Origin: a virus
DNA length: 64,000 bases
IMG/VR virus record: IMGVR_UViG_3300049324_000002
Span: 1 to 64,000 of that record
Reading direction: 5' to 3' (one strand)
In this document: piece by piece, positions 22,166-63,404 of the stretch
Numbering within the stretch: the stretch's first letter is position 1
Layout: every line of letters starts with the position of its first letter
Translations under genes and position numbers: made by a program
The notes under the pieces: generated by a model
What the model saw: the letters and a program-made list of their open reading frames with translations, nothing else
What the model was told of the DNA's origin: nothing
Databases searched by the model: none

Positions 22166-22828
22166 TTAAGCTCGTTCCAACCACCGAGCATCACACTCAG
22201 AACACACCCGCATAACGTGATCATCTTCACTAGGCTCGAGAAAATGAACAGCAATATGTCCATTAGGACACGAAGAACTAGCAGAAAAAGCAAACTCAGT
22301 CTTAGTCACAGGAACAGTCGACCACTCAACAATAGGAACATCAGAAAACCCACTCAAAGCGCATATCGTATCCACATCACCTTTAGATGCTGCATCTGAA
22401 CCACTCATGGCCTTTAATGCCAACACATCAATCTGACAAATAGTCTCGCCTAGCTCTTTCTCAACCTGCTGAGTCAAATCAGACAACTCAACAAAAGCCC
22501 TATCAAGCTGACGACGCACCATCACAGAATTAGTTCTATTACGAATAACAGCCCAACGCCACGACCAATACCACGAAGAAAGGATAATAACAGGTGCACC
22601 GTACCCAAGAATATACTGACCCAGACCGGAAGCAAAAAAAGCTATCCACCACAAAATAATACCATATGTCATCGTCACAGCCCAGTAAAGCTTAGCAACG
22701 CCCGCCCTAACAGGGGGATGCCGCAACATCCAAGTAAACCTATCTACCACAACCGCCACATTAACAACAGCTAACAAAAACCAAAGAAAGTTAATGTCAT
22801 ATGTACTAGCGGCGTCGGCAGTACCCAT
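22166..22828 (-). CDS. Membrane protein with C-terminal Zn-binding domain
   Basis: Three TM segments, coiled coil, CPNGHIAVHFLEPS..DHVMRVC..C. Confidence 0.65.
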   Translation of the reverse strand: MGTADAASTYDINFLWFLLAVVNVAVVVDRFTWMLRHPPVRAGVAKLYWAVTMTYGIILWWIAFFASGLGQYILGYGAPVIILSSWYWSWRWAVIRNRTNSVMVRRQLDRAFVELSDLTQQVEKELGETICQIDVLALKAMSGSDAASKGDVDTICALSGFSDVPIVEWSTVPVTKTEFAFSASSSCPNGHIAVHFLEPSEDDHVMRVCSECDARWLERA

Positions 22829-22840
22829 ACCACACCAATC

Positions 22841-22896
22841 GAAAAGTGTTGTCGAATCGAACTGAATTGAGGCGCACGGAAACGAGTAGTCGAACT
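22841..22896 (-). repeat. Orphan unit of the pentamer-periodic array
   Basis: Minus strand: AGTTC GAC TACTC GTTTC CGTGC GCCTC AATTC AGTTC GATTC GAC AACAC TTTTC. Confidence 0.8.
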
Positions 22897-22908: not shown

Positions 22909-23148
22909 TCAGTCTTCGTCCACTGGCCTCACAACAGGCTCATCAGTCTTAGGCTTGTCCACATTCAGTGACAGCGGAGCGGTGGGACGCCGACGCGCAC
23001 GAACACGCGCACGCACATCCACCGTCACCCCCAGCACCACCACACAAGCCGCCAACGCCACGACCAGCACCCACCCAGGCACCTGGAACCACAGCGCAGC
23101 AACGACAGCCGCGACACCAGCAACGATCATAAGAAGTATTTGTCCCAT
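22909..23148 (-). CDS. Small 2-TM membrane protein lying between array segments
   Basis: MGQILLMIVAGVAAVVAALWFQVPGW...; ATG at 23148 is 6 nt after a CGGTAGGA motif. Confidence 0.65.
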   Translation of the reverse strand: MGQILLMIVAGVAAVVAALWFQVPGWVLVVALAACVVVLGVTVDVRARVRARRRPTAPLSLNVDKPKTDEPVVRPVDED

Positions 23149-23170
23149 GACACGTCCTACCGAGCGCATC

Positions 23171-23781
23171 GTCGGCATGAGATGACTTGCGGCGAGTAGT
23201 CGTATCGAACTGACCAGCAACGGGCTCGGCGGGAGTCGCATAGTCACACGTATCGACGTGATCTGAAAGCGGCAAGTCAGCTTGGGGATGGCTGGAAATG
23301 ATCGCGACAGGAGTAGTCGAACCGATCCGGTCAGAACAGGCGCGAAGCGTGGGGATTAGTCAATCGAGTCGAGTGGACTTGTCGCGAATTGGGTTGTCTG
23401 ACCGAGACGAGTAGATACGGGTAGATACGTCAGACGGAATGGCAGCGAAATGCGTAGTCGAACGGAAAAGATCGGAACTGTCTCGGGTAGTCACATGACA
23501 GGAACAGACACGATGCGATTCGTCGGTGTCGATTGGACAGGCCCTGGCTCGACGTGTCTGAAAGCACTGCAGGGCATCGACTCGAAAGGAGTAGTCGGAA
23601 AGGACTTGAACTGCCGAGGAGGGACACGGGTAGTCGGAAAGATGTGACAGGAATGGGCACGCGTAGTCGACTTGACAAGCAATGCCGCGAAACGAGTAGT
23701 CGAACGATCCGATTAGAAGTGCCTCTGAAAGGCCCGGCGTAGAGTAGTCGTACGACATGACGAGAAGAGAAATGGTTAGTC
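23171..23781 (-). repeat. Array 1: about 17 units of GAC + 5-9 pentamers ending in C; putative guide-RNA array
   Basis: 18 GAC anchors with consensus GACTACTC; spacings 28-48 nt clustering at 3+5n. Confidence 0.88.
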
Positions 23782-23785
23782 AGTA

Positions 23786-23818
23786 CCCAGACAACTGGGG
23801 TCAGCACACATCATACCC
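23786..23818 (-). promoter_or_regulatory. Putative promoter (GGGTATGAT) and 5' hairpin for array 1
   Basis: Genome-wide promoter motif at 23811-23818, then CCCAG-TTGT-CTGGG hairpin just before the first GAC. Confidence 0.6.
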
Positions 23819-35782: not shown

Positions 35783-38700
35783 TCACGAGAACATCCCCAT
35801 CAAAGACAAAGAACGCATACGAGCCGCCGCCGAGTCAGAAGCAGTCTCAGCAACCGGATTATAGATGTTCGTATTAATGACAACATCCCTAGATGAGTCA
35901 CTACTAGAAGCGCCATGCACCACCGTAGAAGATGACCCGGCCGACAACGCCGCATCCAACCCGGCCCGCACAGCACCCCCCAACGCAAACCGCTGCACCG
36001 ACGCACGCCCCACAGGCGAGAACAAGTCAGCAGCATGCACCCCACCTGACGCGTTCAACCTCGTCAACAAATCAAGGCCAAGTGCCTCCGACACACCCCT
36101 ACTCAAAACAAACTCACCCGGCGTCAACATCGCCGGAACCGAATCACCCCCACCCGGCCCAGAAGCAGTAACCACACCACCATCCGCGTAACCGTGACCC
36201 TTCCACCCCGCAGCCAACGAACCATACGCAGCCACAGTATACTTAATAGCAGAAGTAATATTAGCCATAGGATCAACCGACACACCATACGAATAAGGAC
36301 CCTTATCAAACCTAGCATCCTTGTAAGCCGCGTACGTGCCAGCGATAACCTGCATCAAACCAACAGAAGGATGACCAGCCTGCCAGTTCGAATCCCACTG
36401 ATTAACCACAGTAGGATTACCACCAGACTCAGTGCTCATCTGCATCAACAAGGCACCGATATTCTCAAGAGCCTGATTCTCAGCAGTCAGTGCCGCTAAC
36501 CCAGTGGCCCTCCACTGCTCAACGCCAGCCCCACCACCCTGCAACAACCCACTCGCACCAGCATTAGCCAACGCCGCTGCAGCGGCAGCCGCCCGCGCCG
36601 CATAATCCTTAGCCTTCTCAATAACCGCGTCAATAACTTTAGAAGGTATAGCCTTCATAACATCAGTGAAGCCACCTGACCCGGGCACACGCCCAGCATC
36701 ATCAGACACCCCACCAAACAACGTACGAACAGACCCAACAGGATCCGACACCATCGAAGCAATCGCGCCCGTAACATCACCAACGACACCACCACCAGCA
36801 AACCTATTCCCACCCGCTGGCTTAGCACGACCACCAGAATAAAACTCATTCGCCTTGTAAACAAAGTCAGGACCCAGTCCCCGAACAGCCTCAGGAACGA
36901 GTACTCCCTCTCCTGGCGAGAGGACCACTGGTACCGAGTCCCGACCCGGAGCATAGCCAGGGAGAACACCACCCTCAGCCAGCAACGCAGCAGGCGCTAG
37001 CTTCCCCAACCCGAACACACCAGCAAGACCATTCCACAACGGAACAATCCCACGATTGTAAACAACGTCAATCACAAAGTTAACAGGACCCTTAGCAATA
37101 TCACCTAACCTGTTCCAAGCACCCTCAATAGCACCAATAACATTCGTAAAAGTATCACCAAGAAGATGTACCACACCCATAAAGCCATTGAAGATAGGCA
37201 AGAGGATGTTATTGTAAATGCCTGTGAAAGCACCACCAATGAAATCTAGAGCAGGCTTAATAGCATTATTCCACAACCACAAAGCAGCGTTACCTGTATC
37301 CTGGAAAGCTCTGACCAAAGAATCAATCACAGGCTTAACAAGAGTATTCCACAAGAAACCAAACGCAGCCCCCATGAAATCAAGAGCAGGCTTAATAGCA
37401 TTAACCCACAACCACGTACCAGCATCACCTAGCTGCTGTAACCCCTCCAAAAACAAGTCAACAATAGGCTTGATAACATTAGTCCACACAGCAGTGAAGA
37501 AAGCACCAACAGCATCCAACGCACCAATAACAATATTACGGAACGTCTCAGAATGCGTCCAAGCATAAATAAACGCAGCAACCAAAGCTGCAATCGCAAG
37601 AACAACCAACCCGATAGGGTTAGCATCCATCGCAGCATTCAACAACCACTGCACCGCAGCCCACGCAGCAGTAGCACCCTTAACAATCGCAGACCCCGCA
37701 GCAAACAACAACTGCTTAGCATTAGCAGCTAAAGTCTCAACACCCAACTTAATGTAACTACCTGCAGCGCTAGCAACAGCACCCGCAACCTGCAAAGCAG
37801 ACCCAACAGCCTTACCTAACCCAGACGCTGCACTACCAGCCGCACTAGCAACAGCACCCGACAACGTAGAAGCAACACCAGACAACGCAGACTTAGCAGC
37901 CTCAGCAAGAGGCTTAATCTTCGCCAAACCAGCCGAAATGACTTCCGGTGCAAACGACCCAGCAATAGAACCTGCAATACCACCAACCGCTGCACCAGTA
38001 TCCCCACCCACCGCCTGGCCGATCGCTGCCCCGGCCAGACCACCACCAATAGACCCCGCGATCCCACCGGCCACCCGCCCCACAGCCACCGCGCCACGGC
38101 CCACAGAGCCCGCCACCGCGCTCAACCGCGACGGCGCAGCAGGTGCCGAGCGAGGAGTACCAGGAGGATAAAAAGGCGCAGCCCCAGCAGGAACAGCAGT
38201 CTGAACAGGCGACGCTGCAGGAGTCCCCGGCTTGAACACCGACATCGCCGCGCCGCCCACCGCAGCACCGGCACGCGCCGTAATCGTACGAGGAGTAGCA
38301 GTCTCACCCGCAACAGCCGACTTCACACCACCAACAAAACTCGTAGGAGACGCCTTAACCGGAGCAGCCTCACCAGCCAAATAAGAAGCAGACCGCCCAG
38401 CCAACGCGTTAATCCCACCAGCAACACTAGACAAACCAGTAATAGAACCTATCAGCTTGATTGCTTTCAACCCACCAGCAATCGCCAACAACCACACACC
38501 AAGCTCAGCAATATAAGGAACCGAAGTGATAGCCTGCAAAACAGAAGCAAAAATATTCAATATAGTAACGAAAGCTGACAAACCACCTCCGCCTCCAGCA
38601 TTAACCAAGTTAGTAAGAACATCAGCAAGCTTCGAAATAATCTCAATAAGCTGCTGACCAATAGAAAGTGAAACATCCTTCATTGCAGCAGCAAGACGCT

Positions 38701-60567: not shown

Positions 60568-61713
60568 TTAGTTACGAACCATGGCAGCCATCTCAGAAGC
60601 AGTCAACCCCCCTTTAGCCTTCACCTGACCAACCCCACCCGGGCACAACGCCTGCCCCAACAACGTCACCACCAAATCCAAAGCAGCATGTGCATCAGAA
60701 GATGGCTGTATCCTAGAATAATACTCCCACACCACACGCATCCCGGCCACACACCTAGCCGAGTCAAGGCGACTAGCCAACACCTTCTCGTCAGCAGACG
60801 GGGGAGGCGACAACGACGACCCAGACTCAGACATCGTCAACACCAGCAAACGCTTCAACGTCGACACCACCGAGCCCACCACCTCACGAGGCCCCGGGAG
60901 GACGCCCAGCGCCACGCCAGCCGCCTCAAACGCACCCACATAGTCCGGGCCAGCGACCAACGCCCGCACCACAGCCAACCCATGATCCTCAATACCTAGT
61001 AACTGTGTAAGCTGATCAGAAGTACGTACATGCACAAGAGCAGCCTGCTCAGCCATCATCACAGCATTACGAGCCACCCCGCGAGAACGCGTCGCGATAG
61101 CAGTGCAAAGTTCCGAGCTGAAACTAAATCCCTCAGCATCAGAGATGTCACGAATCCGCTGCGCCAACTCCGCCTCAGGAATCCTCGTAAACTCGCAACT
61201 AAAGCAACGAGAAACTACAGTATCCTTAACCTTATCAAGGTCAGTAGTAACCAACATAAAAACAACATTAGGAGGAGGCTCCTCCAAAACCTTCAACAAA
61301 GCATCAAACCCAGTATCAGAAAGAGCGTGCACCTCATCCAAAATAATAACACGATAACGACCCTGCGCCGCATAACGAGCCCGCTCACGCAACGCTCGCA
61401 TATCATCAGCCTTACCATGTGACGCAGCATCAATCTCCGTCACATCAGAAGACCGACCCTCAGCAGTCAACTCACAAGTAGAACAAACACCACACGGCCG
61501 CTCATTAACATCATCATGCTCACAATTCAAAGCAGCAGCGAGAACCCTAGCCATAGTAGTCTTACCAGACCCGAGTGAGCCATGAAAAAGATAGGCCCCT
61601 CGAACCTCATCTGCCTGTATCATGCGCTGTAACACAAGCCGCGCCAATCTCTGACCAACAACATCAGAAAATCGGCGCGGCCTGTATTTCAGGGCTAAAG
61701 CTTTCTGGCTCAT
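60568..61713 (-). CDS. dnaX: DNA polymerase III gamma/tau clamp-loader ATPase
   Basis: LKYRPRRFSDVVGQ, GSGKTT, CGVCSTC, EIDAAS, LDEVH, SRC. Confidence 0.93.
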   Translation of the reverse strand: MSQKALALKYRPRRFSDVVGQRLARLVLQRMIQADEVRGAYLFHGSLGSGKTTMARVLAAALNCEHDDVNERPCGVCSTCELTAEGRSSDVTEIDAASHGKADDMRALRERARYAAQGRYRVIILDEVHALSDTGFDALLKVLEEPPPNVVFMLVTTDLDKVKDTVVSRCFSCEFTRIPEAELAQRIRDISDAEGFSFSSELCTAIATRSRGVARNAVMMAEQAALVHVRTSDQLTQLLGIEDHGLAVVRALVAGPDYVGAFEAAGVALGVLPGPREVVGSVVSTLKRLLVLTMSESGSSLSPPPSADEKVLASRLDSARCVAGMRVVWEYYSRIQPSSDAHAALDLVVTLLGQALCPGGVGQVKAKGGLTASEMAAMVRN

Positions 61714-61736: not shown

Positions 61737-62507
61737 CTATTCCTCCGAATCCCCAGGCTTAGCCTTCTTAGCACCAGCCTTAGGGGTGGTCGTCTTCGGA
61801 GGCTTCGTCAACAGATCCCATTGCGTGACCTTGTACCGGCCAAACCCACCAGACCGAGAAGCGCCAACACCCTGCTCCTGACCAGTCAGCCACACAATCT
61901 CCCAGAAACCATCACAAGCCGCATCAAAATCGAAGTCAGTAATAACCTGAAACTTCAATACAGCAGGAGTCACATGCTCCTTATAATGCGGGGCAGAACC
62001 ATACTGAGTATGCACGAACTGCTGCACAATACCAGAAGCAGTAAGCACGTTCTTGCCATCATCAGGATTAAAGATATGAACCTTATCATCCGTCACCATA
62101 ATATGCTCAGCAACGAACCCCTTAGCAAACTTACTCGTCACACCCCACGAGCGAAGCGGCACGTTCCCGGCCGCGACGGCGACCATCACAGCCTCTTTCA
62201 GCGCAGCCTTCACCTGACGACCATCAATGTACAGGCCCTCAGTATCTTTCTTAAACCCAGTGAAGTGCTTAGCCGAACCAACCAGCTTCACAGCCTCCTC
62301 AGCAGACACCGCGCGCTCAGCCATCGTCTCAGCAACAGCCCGACGAACAGCATCGTCTTTATCCTCAATCTTGGTACGCAACCAAGACTCCGCGACCTTC
62401 TCATCAGTAGGAATACCACCAGCAATCGAATCCACCTGAATCGTGGCCGCGTAACGCCACTTCCAAACCCTATCCTGTGCTGAAGCGAAAACAGAAGTAG
62501 CCGACAT
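61737..62507 (-). CDS. Stand-alone Cas7/RAMP-superfamily protein
   Basis: LYIDGRQVKAALKEA (cf. RAMP YIPGSSLKGALR) and C-terminal G-rich loop GVGASRSGGFGRY. Confidence 0.8.
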   Translation of the reverse strand: MSATSVFASAQDRVWKWRYAATIQVDSIAGGIPTDEKVAESWLRTKIEDKDDAVRRAVAETMAERAVSAEEAVKLVGSAKHFTGFKKDTEGLYIDGRQVKAALKEAVMVAVAAGNVPLRSWGVTSKFAKGFVAEHIMVTDDKVHIFNPDDGKNVLTASGIVQQFVHTQYGSAPHYKEHVTPAVLKFQVITDFDFDAACDGFWEIVWLTGQEQGVGASRSGGFGRYKVTQWDLLTKPPKTTTPKAGAKKAKPGDSEE

Positions 62508-62597
62508 CAGATATGCTCCTTGTTATTTGTTGTCGAATCAACCCCGGACAAGCCGAGGCACAGCACCGTCACCATTGACGACAAACCCCTTATACCG

Positions 62598-62846
62598 AGA
62601 GATCGATATGAGTTGAATGAACAGACAAGTCGAGATGAATTGAAACGACTCGGCTAGAAAAGTCGGCGTTGAATAGTATCGAGTTGACGGGTGAAGTCGG
62701 TAGGGAGGCGACCCGATCAGGAGCGACATGAGTGGTCGATGCGAAGGGAAGCGAATAGAGAAGTCGGTGATGTATAGACTAGCAGCGAAATGACTTGGCT
62801 TGTCGAATCGACTTGATCTGATATGAACCGTCTTGAGAAGTCGAAA
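62598..62846 (-). repeat. Array 2: seven GAC-anchored pentamer-periodic units upstream of the RAMP gene
   Basis: Anchors at 62629, 62662, 62696, 62735, 62763, 62802, 62840; e.g. GAC TTCTC AAGAC GGTTC ATATC AGATC AAGTC GATTC. Confidence 0.88.
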
Positions 62847-63404
62847 CTAAGAAGCAACAATAGAAGTACGGCCCTGAATCGAACTGTACATTCTATCAAT
62901 ATCCTCTTCAGAGAAGACAGCACCCACCGTCTGCTGGCCAACCCGGGACGCCAGCGCGAGCAAGAACGCCTCCTCCAACAAAGCAGTATGAGCTGAACGT
63001 GAATACCTAGCAGCCGCGAAATTCAAATCATCACGATTCATGTCAAGCAAACGACGCTGAGTATTCTCACCATCAACAGCGTAACGTACGGTCTTCCAAT
63101 GACTAATCGCACTGGAATCCCCGCCCGTAAACTTGCGAGCATCTGCCGCAAACGCAGACCGTGCCGCATTCGACCGAGCCCGCGCTCGAGCGGAGGCAAG
63201 CCGATGCTTAATCTGCTCAGCCAAGAACGTACTAGAATGCTCCAACAGCCAACCAGTAAGCAACTCAGGATCAGTTTTCTTCAACCTACTGACAAGTGTC
63301 CACGAAGCAACAGAAGGAATCAAATCCGACTCAGCATCTAAAAGAATATCGGTAATCATTTTAGACATCTCAGCAGAGTAATTCCTGCCTGGATCTTCAT
63401 CCAC
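62847..63404 (-). CDS. Hypothetical protein directly upstream of array 2
   Basis: 185-aa ORF whose stop codon lies 4 nt before the first GAC. Confidence 0.7.
   Translation of the reverse strand: MDEDPGRNYSAEMSKMITDILLDAESDLIPSVASWTLVSRLKKTDPELLTGWLLEHSSTFLAEQIKHRLASARARARSNAARSAFAADARKFTGGDSSAISHWKTVRYAVDGENTQRRLLDMNRDDLNFAAARYSRSAHTALLEEAFLLALASRVGQQTVGAVFSEEDIDRMYSSIQGRTSIVAS

What the first reader, a model, noticed from the sequence alone, without database searches (positions are those of the whole stretch)
62598..62846. Array 2 fills the gap between the candidate accessory gene and the RAMP promoter
The minus strand reads: TAG TTTC | GAC TTCTC AAGAC GGTTC ATATC AGATC AAGTC GATTC | GAC AAGCC AAGTC ATTTC GCTGC TAGTC TATAC ATCACC | GAC TTCTC TATTC GCTTC CCTTC GCATC | GAC CACTC ATGTC GCTCC TGATC GGGTC GCCTC CCTACC | GAC TTCAC CCGTC AACTC GATAC TATTC AACGCC | GAC TTTTC TAGCC GAGTC GTTTC AATTC ATCTC | GAC TTGTC... 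Spacings are 38, 39, 28, 39, 34, 33. The handle here tends to GACTTCTC versus GACTACTC in array 1, suggesting each array expanded locally. This adjacency is what ties the array grammar to the RAMP protein.
Basis: seen in the sequence. Interest (0 to 1): 0.85.

Follow-up and report, generated by a model that had tools for sequence, protein, structure and literature searches.

The report
Pentamer-phased array beside orphan phage Cas7
A 250-base non-coding stretch in a large phage carries a strict five-base rhythm (…TC every 5 bases, reset by GAC), and the same kind of array sits beside the same lone Cas7-like (CRISPR-backbone-type) gene in dozens of unrelated phages, pointing to an undescribed protein–array system that is neither CRISPR nor TIGR.

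Summary
Window 62598-62846 (minus strand) is a non-coding lattice of NNNTC pentamers, interrupted by GAC every 28-39 nt. TC-TC pairs at lag 5 number 19, against 2.6±1.6 in shuffles (0 of 5000 reach 19).

Only three such regions exist in the 146-kb phage: array 1, array 2 and a 3.9-kb array outside the window.

A DNA-pattern-only scan of viral contigs pulled out about 28 loci that encode homologues of this protein beside the match. Conversely, a strict detector found an array flanking 38 of 80 homologue loci, against 0 of 263 control segments.

Array sequence is not conserved; only the C lattice and the GAC phase shift are. Near-identical phages differ by gain or loss of whole units.

It is not CRISPR: no repeats, no cas1. 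It is not TIGR: no Nop protein, no dual repeats.

Best reading: the arrays are the cognate nucleic acid, probably the sense transcript, coated by the orphan Cas7 in a 5-nt register. The biological role is unknown.

The "promoter" and the crRNA-like "handle" are unproven. Other first-stage notes on this genome flag the same grammar.

The parts
62598..62846 (-). Array 2: seven units of GAC + 5-7 pentamers NNN(T/C)C. It starts 4 nt after the stop codon of the upstream gene.
   Evidence: Sequence; lag-5 statistics; segmentation; no RNA structure beyond shuffles (z -0.8)
62508..62597 (-). Non-periodic leader of the Cas7-like gene. It holds CTCTCGGTATAAGG (62588-62601), a hairpin CCTCGG..CCGGGG (62542-62558), a last unit GATTCGACAAC (62529-62539) and the RBS AAGGAG (62516-62521).
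   Evidence: Elements are conserved in relatives L227 and L230. The L230 hairpin reads CCTCAG..CTGAGG, a compensatory change. YCGACAAY + RBS also ends arrays in G001, L086 and after array 1.
61737..62507 (-). 256-aa orphan Cas7/Csm3-like RAMP protein (P0001)
62847..63404 (-). 185-aa helical protein (P0002), the recurrent upstream partner of the array and Cas7-like gene
   Evidence: Homologues lie upstream of the Cas7-like gene in about 39 loci. AF2 pLDDT 90, all-helical, with no PDB fold match at E<=1e-3.
23160..23810 (-). Array 1: the same grammar with GACTACNC marks. It is syntenic with a 5.7-kb array in the relative G001.
   Evidence: synteny
22848..22892 (-). Isolated CGACTACTC unit plus GATTCGACAAC just upstream of the start of gene 22166-22828
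60568..61713 (-). Clamp-loader (DNA pol III gamma/tau-like) gene directly downstream; context only
   Evidence: PF13177 E 4.6e-34; phrog_5846 E 1.5e-64

Best explanation
Array 2 is one copy of a previously undescribed class of phage non-coding arrays. Each is a C-rich, G-poor lattice in which every fifth base is C, usually preceded by T or C. Every 5-8 pentamers a 3-nt GAC insertion shifts the lattice. These arrays are the cognate nucleic-acid partner of the adjacent orphan Cas7-like protein.

Most likely mechanism (inferred, not shown): the array is transcribed with its flanking genes, since it lies on their sense strand with no terminator before it. The unstructured RNA is then coated by a filament of the Cas7-like protein, one subunit per 5 nt. 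The invariant YC is the base-specific contact that replaces the Cas5/Cas6 handle recognition of CRISPR complexes. GAC acts as a register reset or nucleation mark and divides the coat into segments of 5-8 subunits.

What the coated RNA then does is open. Candidates are shielding long untranslated RNA, timing expression of the downstream module (the last unit abuts its RBS), or acting as a decoy or scaffold.

Shown: the grammar, its rarity, the Cas7 fold, and the cross-phage co-occurrence. Inferred: RNA rather than DNA as the ligand, the 5-nt register, filament formation, and the role.
For: Grammar and rarity.

Cas7 fold. G-rich loop and the LYIEGRQLKAALKEA helix motif are conserved in 26 homologues.

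Co-occurrence from both directions:
- A pattern-only scan returned 119 loci, of which about 28 carry a homologue beside the match.
- The protein-first set of 80 loci has arrays in 38 by a detector that gives 0 of 263 on null DNA and 4 of 140 on far segments. Fisher p is 2e-28 and 6e-16.
- The pairing also occurs in the isolate Microcystis phage Mae-JY09 and in a Nocardiopsis prophage.
- The protein is otherwise very rare: 1 of 50,697 phage records.

A logo over 588 GAC marks from 37 independent loci shows C at +7, +12, +17, +22 and +27 (75-85%) and at -1, -6 and -11. GAC is therefore a 3-nt phase shift.

Only the lattice is conserved between relatives at 60% amino-acid identity.

The C-rich strand is the sense strand of the Cas7-like gene in 33 of 38 array-bearing loci.

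The RNA has no structure beyond shuffles, as expected for an extended protein-bound strand.

Established knowledge: Cas7 subunits bind extended crRNA with a fixed periodicity (6 nt), and type III crRNA lengths step by that period. Here unit lengths step by 5 (28/33/38/43).
Against: Known Cas7 proteins use a 6-nt register and bind RNA without base specificity, so both the 5-nt register and the C readout are extrapolations.

Five loci carry arrays on the strand opposite to the Cas7-like gene.

Two of the three arrays in this phage, including the 3.9-kb one, are far from the single Cas7-like gene.

The gene's neighbours are replication and recombination genes (clamp loader, Rad52, RusA, PD-(D/E)XK nuclease). 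That context would also suit a DNA-level role.

The strict detector missed arrays in 42 of 80 loci, and at least one of those (L196) truly seems to lack one.
Confidence: 0.5

Rival explanations
1. Minimal RNA-guided system. The array is cut at or near each GAC into crRNA-like units of 28-43 nt. A Cas7-like filament holds each unit, and the three free bases of each pentamer pair with a target in the host or a competing element.
For: Units are discrete, with lengths quantised by the lattice period, as type III crRNAs are by 6 nt. Unit content turns over between phages that are 99.1-99.9% identical in the flanking genes. The Cas7 fold is the guide-holding backbone of class 1 effectors. TIGR-Tas is a precedent for non-CRISPR guide arrays in phages (PMC12045711).
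Against: No processing enzyme, nuclease, Cas5, Cas10 or Cas11 partner is conserved nearby. Two of every five bases are fixed, leaving only 15-21 informative bases per unit. The units have no above-chance complementarity to this phage or its relative: 0 sites with 0-1 mismatch, the same as shuffled controls. The equivalent of the Csm3 catalytic Asp is not invariant. Arrays of 3.9-5.7 kb would be extreme for guides.
Confidence: 0.17
2. DNA-level element. The arrays are replication origins, iteron fields or a single-strand DNA lattice, bound by the 185-aa or 256-aa protein during replication or recombination.
For: Arrays sit in non-coding gaps next to replication and recombination genes: clamp loader, DnaB region, Rad52, RusA and a nuclease. 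Phage origins are typically repeat-rich gaps beside the gene of their binding protein (established knowledge).
Against: No iterons of 10 bp or more are conserved. A 5-bp period puts sites on opposite faces of duplex DNA. Three to five arrays per genome, up to 5.7 kb long, is unlike an origin. The partner protein has an RNA-binding Cas7 fold. The strong strand asymmetry fits a single-stranded ligand.
Confidence: 0.13
3. Rho-loading or termination zones (super-rut sites), or a Rho sponge, that separate transcription modules. The Cas7-like protein would be a modulator at most.
For: The transcript would be untranslated, unstructured and C>G (C 31-34%, G 15-21%), with YC every 5 nt. The rest of the sense strand is G>C. 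YC is the dinucleotide bound by Rho's primary site in E. coli-type Rut sites (PMC13650167). The three arrays lie between gene modules.
Against: In M. tuberculosis, an actinobacterium, Rut sites of full-length Rho are not enriched in YC and show no C>G bias (PMC13650167). The hosts here appear to be Actinomycetota. Rho needs neither a strict 5-nt phase nor GAC marks. This reading does not explain the tight link to the Cas7-like gene.
Confidence: 0.08
4. Functionless by-product: slippage-generated degenerate microsatellite or compositional noise.
For: Unit indels occur between close relatives. Some sub-unit duplications are present.
Against: The lattice and GAC phase shift are kept in 37 or more independent loci spanning 45-70% GC, while the intervening bases are free. 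Arrays persist at syntenic sites at 60% protein identity with no sequence identity. The detector gives 0 of 263 on null segments.
Confidence: 0.03

Closest known systems
Type III (Csm/Cmr) CRISPR effector backbone: Cas7 (Csm3/Cmr4) on crRNA
   Same: The protein has the Cas7 RAMP fold and a G-rich loop. It sits beside an array of short units. Unit lengths step by the lattice period, as type III crRNAs step by 6 nt (established knowledge).
   Different: No CRISPR repeats, no cas1 or cas2, and no Cas5, Cas10, Cas11 or Cas6 nearby. The period is 5, not 6. The periodic position is sequence-fixed (YC). Pfam RAMP models do not recognise the protein.
[quoted passage not shown]
   Same: A phage-borne, non-CRISPR array lies directly upstream or downstream of a small RNA-binding protein gene. 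Standard repeat finders miss the arrays.
   Different: TIGR units are a fixed 36 nt, with two alternating 8-12-nt repeats and 9-nt spacers, and the protein is a Nop domain. Here there are no conserved repeats, units vary from 28 to 43 nt, the lattice is 5 nt, and the protein has a Cas7 fold.
Protein-titrating or protein-coated repeat RNAs (CsrB/CsrA; TRAP on (G/U)AG repeats spaced 2-3 nt) - from memory
   Same: A short motif recurs at a fixed short spacing on an unstructured RNA and is read by an oligomeric protein. TRAP's spacing is also about 5 nt.
   Different: The protein folds are different. Those RNAs carry 9-22 sites, not hundreds. They have no GAC phase shifts and no phage context.
Rho utilisation (rut) sites
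   Same: C>G, YC-rich, unstructured, untranslated RNA.
   Different: The strict phase, the GAC marks, the kilobase length and the linkage to a Cas7-like gene are not rut features. Actinobacterial Rho does not favour YC.

Membership tests
CRISPR array | Near-identical direct repeats of about 23-50 nt alternating with unique spacers | tested here: not met
   The repeat finder gives only 10-35-nt families at 60-90% identity, which reflect the lattice. No 18-mer occurs 3 times or more within 400 nt anywhere in the genome. TRF finds nothing here.
CRISPR-Cas locus | Adaptation genes (cas1/cas2) or a full effector module nearby | tested here: not met
   No Cas1 (PF01867) in the 146-kb genome. Neighbour clustering across 28 loci finds only the 185-aa helical protein as a recurrent partner.
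Cas7 / Csm3-Cmr4 RAMP | RRM-like core with the Cas7 topology | tested here: met
Cas7 / Csm3-Cmr4 RAMP | C-terminal glycine-rich loop GhGxxxxxGhG | tested here: met
   GVGASRSGGFG in the window protein. G213, R218 and G223 are invariant in 26 homologues.
Cas7 / Csm3-Cmr4 RAMP | Recognised by curated sequence models (Pfam RAMPs PF03787) | tested here: not met
   No Pfam hit for 26 members apart from one weak Cas6_C hit (E 0.003). No PF03787 match at E<=1 in the genome. A profile against PDB sequences gives only E 0.17-1.5 to Csm4 and Cmr6.
Cas7 / Csm3-Cmr4 RAMP | Catalytic Asp after strand 1 (target RNA cleavage) | tested here: inconclusive
   D35 in the GGxPxD loop is replaced by S, K, N or Q in many homologues. 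No residue-level superposition on Csm3 was available.
Cas7 / Csm3-Cmr4 RAMP | Binds RNA as a filament with 6-nt periodicity | not testable with these tools
   The arrays show a 5-nt signal and no 6-nt signal.
TIGR-Tas | Nop-domain Tas protein next to the array | tested here: not met
   The flanking proteins have no Pfam domain. The 256-aa protein has a Cas7 fold. The definition is taken from PMC12045711.
TIGR-Tas | Two alternating 8-12-nt repeats, 9-nt spacers, 36-nt unit | tested here: not met
   Units are 28, 33, 34, 38 or 39 nt with no conserved repeats.
Rho utilisation site | C>G, YC-rich, unstructured untranslated RNA | tested here: met
   C 31%, G 15% in array 2. Folding z-scores are -0.8 and +1.4. 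Dependence on Rho could not be tested, and actinobacterial Rho does not prefer YC.
Phage replication origin with iterons | Several copies of a 10-22-bp iteron | tested here: not met
   Only the 8-9-nt mark (C)GACTNNTC recurs.
Simple tandem repeat / microsatellite | Head-to-tail copies at 70% identity or more | tested here: not met
   TRF at minimum score 30 reports nothing in 62508-62846 or 23160-23810.

The most novel reading that the evidence does not exclude
A new class of virus-borne ribonucleoprotein system. A stand-alone Cas7 homologue reads a 5-nt periodic code (YC lattice with GAC punctuation) on long, fast-evolving arrays. It may be a stripped-down RNA-guided system, or a programmable RNA-coating filament that phages use to control or protect their transcripts. 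Either way it would be a free-living relative of the class 1 CRISPR backbone, with a sequence-specific register never seen in Cas7 proteins. The family is large (about 2,240 clusters at 50% identity) and almost wholly viral.
Probability: 0.45. Interest if true: 0.92.

Novelty: categorically new. Interest (0 to 1): 0.86.

Why it matters
If the link holds biochemically, this is a third kind of array-plus-RNA-binding-protein module in phages, after CRISPR and TIGR. It is built on the Cas7 fold but lacks repeats, adaptation genes and any known effector.

It bears on how class 1 effector backbones arose, since it would be a Cas7 that finds its RNA through a periodic code rather than through Cas5/Cas6 handles.

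It would define a new RNA-protein recognition rule (5-nt register, YC readout). It would also explain kilobase-scale 'junk' gaps in large actinophage genomes.

The family is large and entirely unannotated: every named member is a 'hypothetical protein' with no Pfam or PHROG family. One result would therefore annotate thousands of viral genes.

The system is directly testable, because a cultured phage (Mae-JY09) and a prophage in a sequenced Nocardiopsis genome carry the module.

Tried and rejected
- Long-range Fourier power at period 5 missed the arrays because GAC shifts the phase. It was replaced by lag-5 autocorrelation.
- Phage single-subunit RNA polymerase promoters (the mark resembles T7/SP6 cores): no such polymerase among the large ORFs, and early genes use sigma-70-like leaderless promoters.
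- FtsK/TraB-type oriented 8-mers: the 809-aa protein gives only a weak AAA_10 hit. This was not pursued.
- GANTC methylation sites: not enriched beyond lattice expectation (reasoned).
- tRNA and Rfam families: none in the window.
- DNA similarity to 50,697 phage records: none.
- The nearest isolate, Microbacterium phage Magritte (portal 41% identity), has no arrays.
- The first strict 19-base pattern was too insensitive: it gave 0 hits even in this genome.
- The search for related loci with the single protein, and with the 26-sequence alignment, failed. A 10-sequence alignment worked.
- 185-aa protein as a Cas11-like small subunit: no PDB fold match at E<=1e-3.
- Self-targeting by units: none above shuffled controls.
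- Structured RNA: none.
- A sigma-70 promoter for the RAMP gene: none on the minus strand.
- Literature searches for orphan Cas7 in phages or for pentamer arrays found nothing relevant.
There are therefore no expression or oligomer data.
- Proteins flanking arrays 1 and 3 have no Pfam family.

Full report
**Setting.** The window is bases 1-64000 of a 146,490-bp IMG/VR virus record, 95% complete.
- Nearly all genes lie on the minus strand. That strand is T>A and G>C throughout.
- The genes are those of a tailed phage: terminase, portal, MuF-like head protein, tail proteins, ribonucleotide reductase, helicases, DnaB, clamp loader and endolysin.
- The nearest cultured phage is Microbacterium phage Magritte, at only 41% portal identity.

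**The observation.** The finding interval lies in a 339-nt gap between ORF 62847-63404(-) and ORF 61737-62507(-).
GAC marks at 62842, 62804, 62765, 62737, 62698, 62664 and 62631 give spacings of 38, 39, 28, 39, 34 and 33.
- Between the marks run pentamers ending in C, mostly TC.
- TC recurs at lag 5 at 2.8 times expectation and at lag 10 at 2.4 times. C at lag 6 is depleted.
- The interval holds 19 TC..TC pairs at lag 5, against 2.6±1.6 in 5000 shuffles; none reaches 19.
- In sliding windows this is the strongest lag-5 signal in the window. Array 1 (about 23160-23810) is second.
- In the whole genome only three regions pass the threshold: array 1, array 2 and a 3.9-kb non-coding block at genome 81128-85028 with about 100 units.
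- The 9-mer CGACTACTC occurs 28 times on the minus strand and never on the plus strand.
- In the 3.9-kb array, pentamer position 4 is T in 69% of cases. Position 5 is C by construction of the segmentation. Positions 1-3 are nearly free.
- The arrays are C 31-34% and G 15-21%, the reverse of the genome's sense-strand skew.
- Tandem Repeats Finder, the repeat finder and an 18-mer census find no true repeats.
- The RNA would have no structure beyond shuffles.

**The neighbouring protein.** The 256-aa product of 61737-62507 has no Pfam or PHROG family.
- An alignment of 26 homologues shows an invariant GG-P loop after the first strand, a LYIEGRQLKAALKEA-type helix and a C-terminal GhGxxxxxGhG loop.
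- The AlphaFold model is confident: pLDDT 86, pTM 0.79.
- Foldseek against the PDB returns 87 matches at E<=1e-3. The top ranks are Csm3 of type III-A, Cas7 of type VII and Cmr4.
- The gene is therefore an orphan Cas7-like RAMP.
- Sequence models do not see this. There is no Pfam RAMP hit, and PDB sequence profiles give only E 0.17-1.5 to Csm4 and Cmr6.
- The genome has no cas1 and only one copy of this gene.

1. Close relative. A phage at about 60% protein identity (G001, 153 kb) keeps arrays at syntenic sites.
   - One follows the homologue of the 185-aa gene.
   - A second lies between the Cas7-like gene and the clamp loader.
   - A 5.7-kb array sits where this phage has the 0.65-kb array 1.
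   - None shares sequence with its counterpart; only the grammar is shared.

2. DNA pattern first. A scan of 2.9 million viral contigs used only C every 5 nt plus two CGAC marks and returned 119 loci.
   - About 28 of them encode a homologue of the 256-aa protein right beside the match.
   - That protein occurs in only one of 50,697 sequenced phage records.
   - In these higher-GC phages the pentamers end in CC rather than TC, so the lattice reads YC.

3. Protein first. In 80 loci chosen by protein alone, a strict detector (periodicity plus C>G) found an array flanking 38.
   - The same detector gave 0 of 263 on control kilobase segments and 4 of 140 on far segments of the same loci. Fisher p is 2e-28 and 6e-16.
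   - Four of five 'no call' loci inspected by eye also carry arrays.

4. Named genomes. The module occurs in Microcystis phage Mae-JY09 (the gene, then a roughly 400-nt CCGAC array at the record's end) and in a Nocardiopsis prophage.

5. Consensus. A logo over 588 GAC marks from 37 independent loci shows C at +7, +12, +17, +22 and +27 (75-85%) and at -1, -6 and -11. GAC is thus a 3-nt shift of a 5-nt lattice, and GAC-to-GAC distances cluster at 3-4 mod 5.

6. The upstream gene. The 185-aa gene recurs upstream of the Cas7-like gene in about 39 loci, usually with the array between them. Its model is helical with no PDB match.

7. Family size. There are about 2,240 clusters at 50% identity with E<=1e-3. 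Every member that carries a name is a 'hypothetical protein'. They are viral or sit in Actinomycetota genomes.

**Dynamics.** Two contigs encode the identical Cas7-like protein and are 99.1-99.9% identical in the flanking genes. They differ by an 88-nt gain or loss of units in the gene-distal part of the array. Adjacent near-duplicate units occur in the Nocardiopsis array. Arrays at one syntenic site range from 0.65 to 5.7 kb. This supports local expansion and contraction.

**What precedes the gene.** The last 90 nt before the start codon are not periodic.
- They hold a conserved CTCGGTAKRAG element.
- They hold a hairpin with a compensatory change between relatives.
- They end in a final unit GATTCGACAA followed by the RBS.
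- The same YCGACAAY-RBS ending closes arrays in G001, in L086 and after array 1.
- The consensus scan finds no sigma-70-like promoter on the minus strand. The 'RAMP promoter' therefore stays a guess.

**Mechanism.** The data show a coupled pair: a Cas7-fold protein, and an unstructured, strand-asymmetric lattice in which only YC every 5 nt and GAC are under selection.
- Established knowledge: Cas7 proteins hold extended RNA with a fixed register, and crRNA lengths step by that register.
- The simplest reading is that the array transcript is coated by this protein, one subunit per pentamer.
- The fixed YC would supply the specificity that Cas5 and Cas6 supply in CRISPR complexes.
- GAC would reset or nucleate the coat.
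- I put this at about 0.5. It is inferred, not shown.
- Weighing against it: the register would be new for Cas7, five loci have arrays on the opposite strand, and two arrays here are remote from the gene.

**Rivals.**
- A true guide system (0.17). It is favoured by discrete, quantised and fast-changing units. It is disfavoured by the missing effector and processing genes, the low information per unit and the lack of matches in the phage genomes.
- A DNA-level origin or single-strand lattice (0.13). It is suggested by the replication and recombination neighbours.
- Rho loading zones (0.08). These fit the composition, but actinobacterial Rho does not favour YC (PMC13650167), and the reading leaves the Cas7 link unexplained.
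- Neutral slippage (0.03).

**Comparison with known systems.**
- It is not a CRISPR array: no repeats and no cas1.
- It is not TIGR-Tas, which has 36-nt units with two alternating 8-12-nt repeats and a Nop-domain protein (PMC12045711).
- It works most like a Cas7-crRNA backbone without the rest of the complex.
- I found no paper describing it.

**Limits.**
- There are no expression, binding or oligomer data.
- The hosts of this phage and of most contigs are unknown.
- Other first-stage notes on this genome describe the same grammar and the RAMP call. I tested those claims here rather than relying on them.

Noticed in passing
outside the window: genome G000 81128-85028 (locus L021 17128-20000 and L022 1-1028): A 3.9-kb non-coding block of about 100 GAC+pentamer units holds 20 of the genome's 28 CGACTACTC copies. 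Spurious ORFs of 100-155 aa run through it because stop codons are rare.
   Followed up: partly
outside the window: genome G000 about 96-112 kb and 128.5 kb (minus strand): About 20 genes start with ATGACGAAC directly after a conserved cTTGCGT-N17-TATGCT promoter-like block (leaderless). Many have CTACCGAC just upstream of the -35, sharing the CGAC of the array marks.
   Followed up: partly
L013-L020 (relative G001), 145351-151050: A 5.7-kb array sits at the site syntenic with this phage's 0.65-kb array 1. Array size at one locus thus varies about nine-fold between relatives.
   Followed up: partly
window 62542-62558 and L230 (leader of the Cas7-like gene): A small hairpin before the final GATTCGACAA unit is kept by compensatory changes (CCTCGG..CCGGGG against CCTCAG..CTGAGG). 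It may be a regulatory stem.
   Followed up: no
L145 (Microcystis phage Mae-JY09, PP395641, 37713-38976): The only cultured phage found to carry the Cas7-like gene has it as the last gene, followed by a roughly 400-nt CCGAC array at the end of the record.
   Followed up: partly
window 37239-37488: A 135-nt tandem duplication (1.9 copies, 74% match) lies inside the 1749-aa ORF, the probable tape-measure gene.
   Followed up: no
window 1-64000: Very strong strand asymmetry: AT skew is +0.17 to +0.39 and GC skew -0.10 to -0.39 on the plus strand. The sense strand is therefore A-poor and C-poor everywhere except in the arrays.
   Followed up: no
L197, L198, L200, L205, L208: In five viral contigs the arrays next to the Cas7-like gene lie on the opposite strand, and in two of them on both sides of the gene. 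The orientation of the neighbouring genes there was not resolved.
   Followed up: partly
window 22909-23147: A small ORF between array 1 and the next CGACTACTC unit appears to encode a short hydrophobic (membrane-like) protein with an Arg-rich tail. It was read only by eye, and the start coordinate was not pinned down.
   Followed up: no
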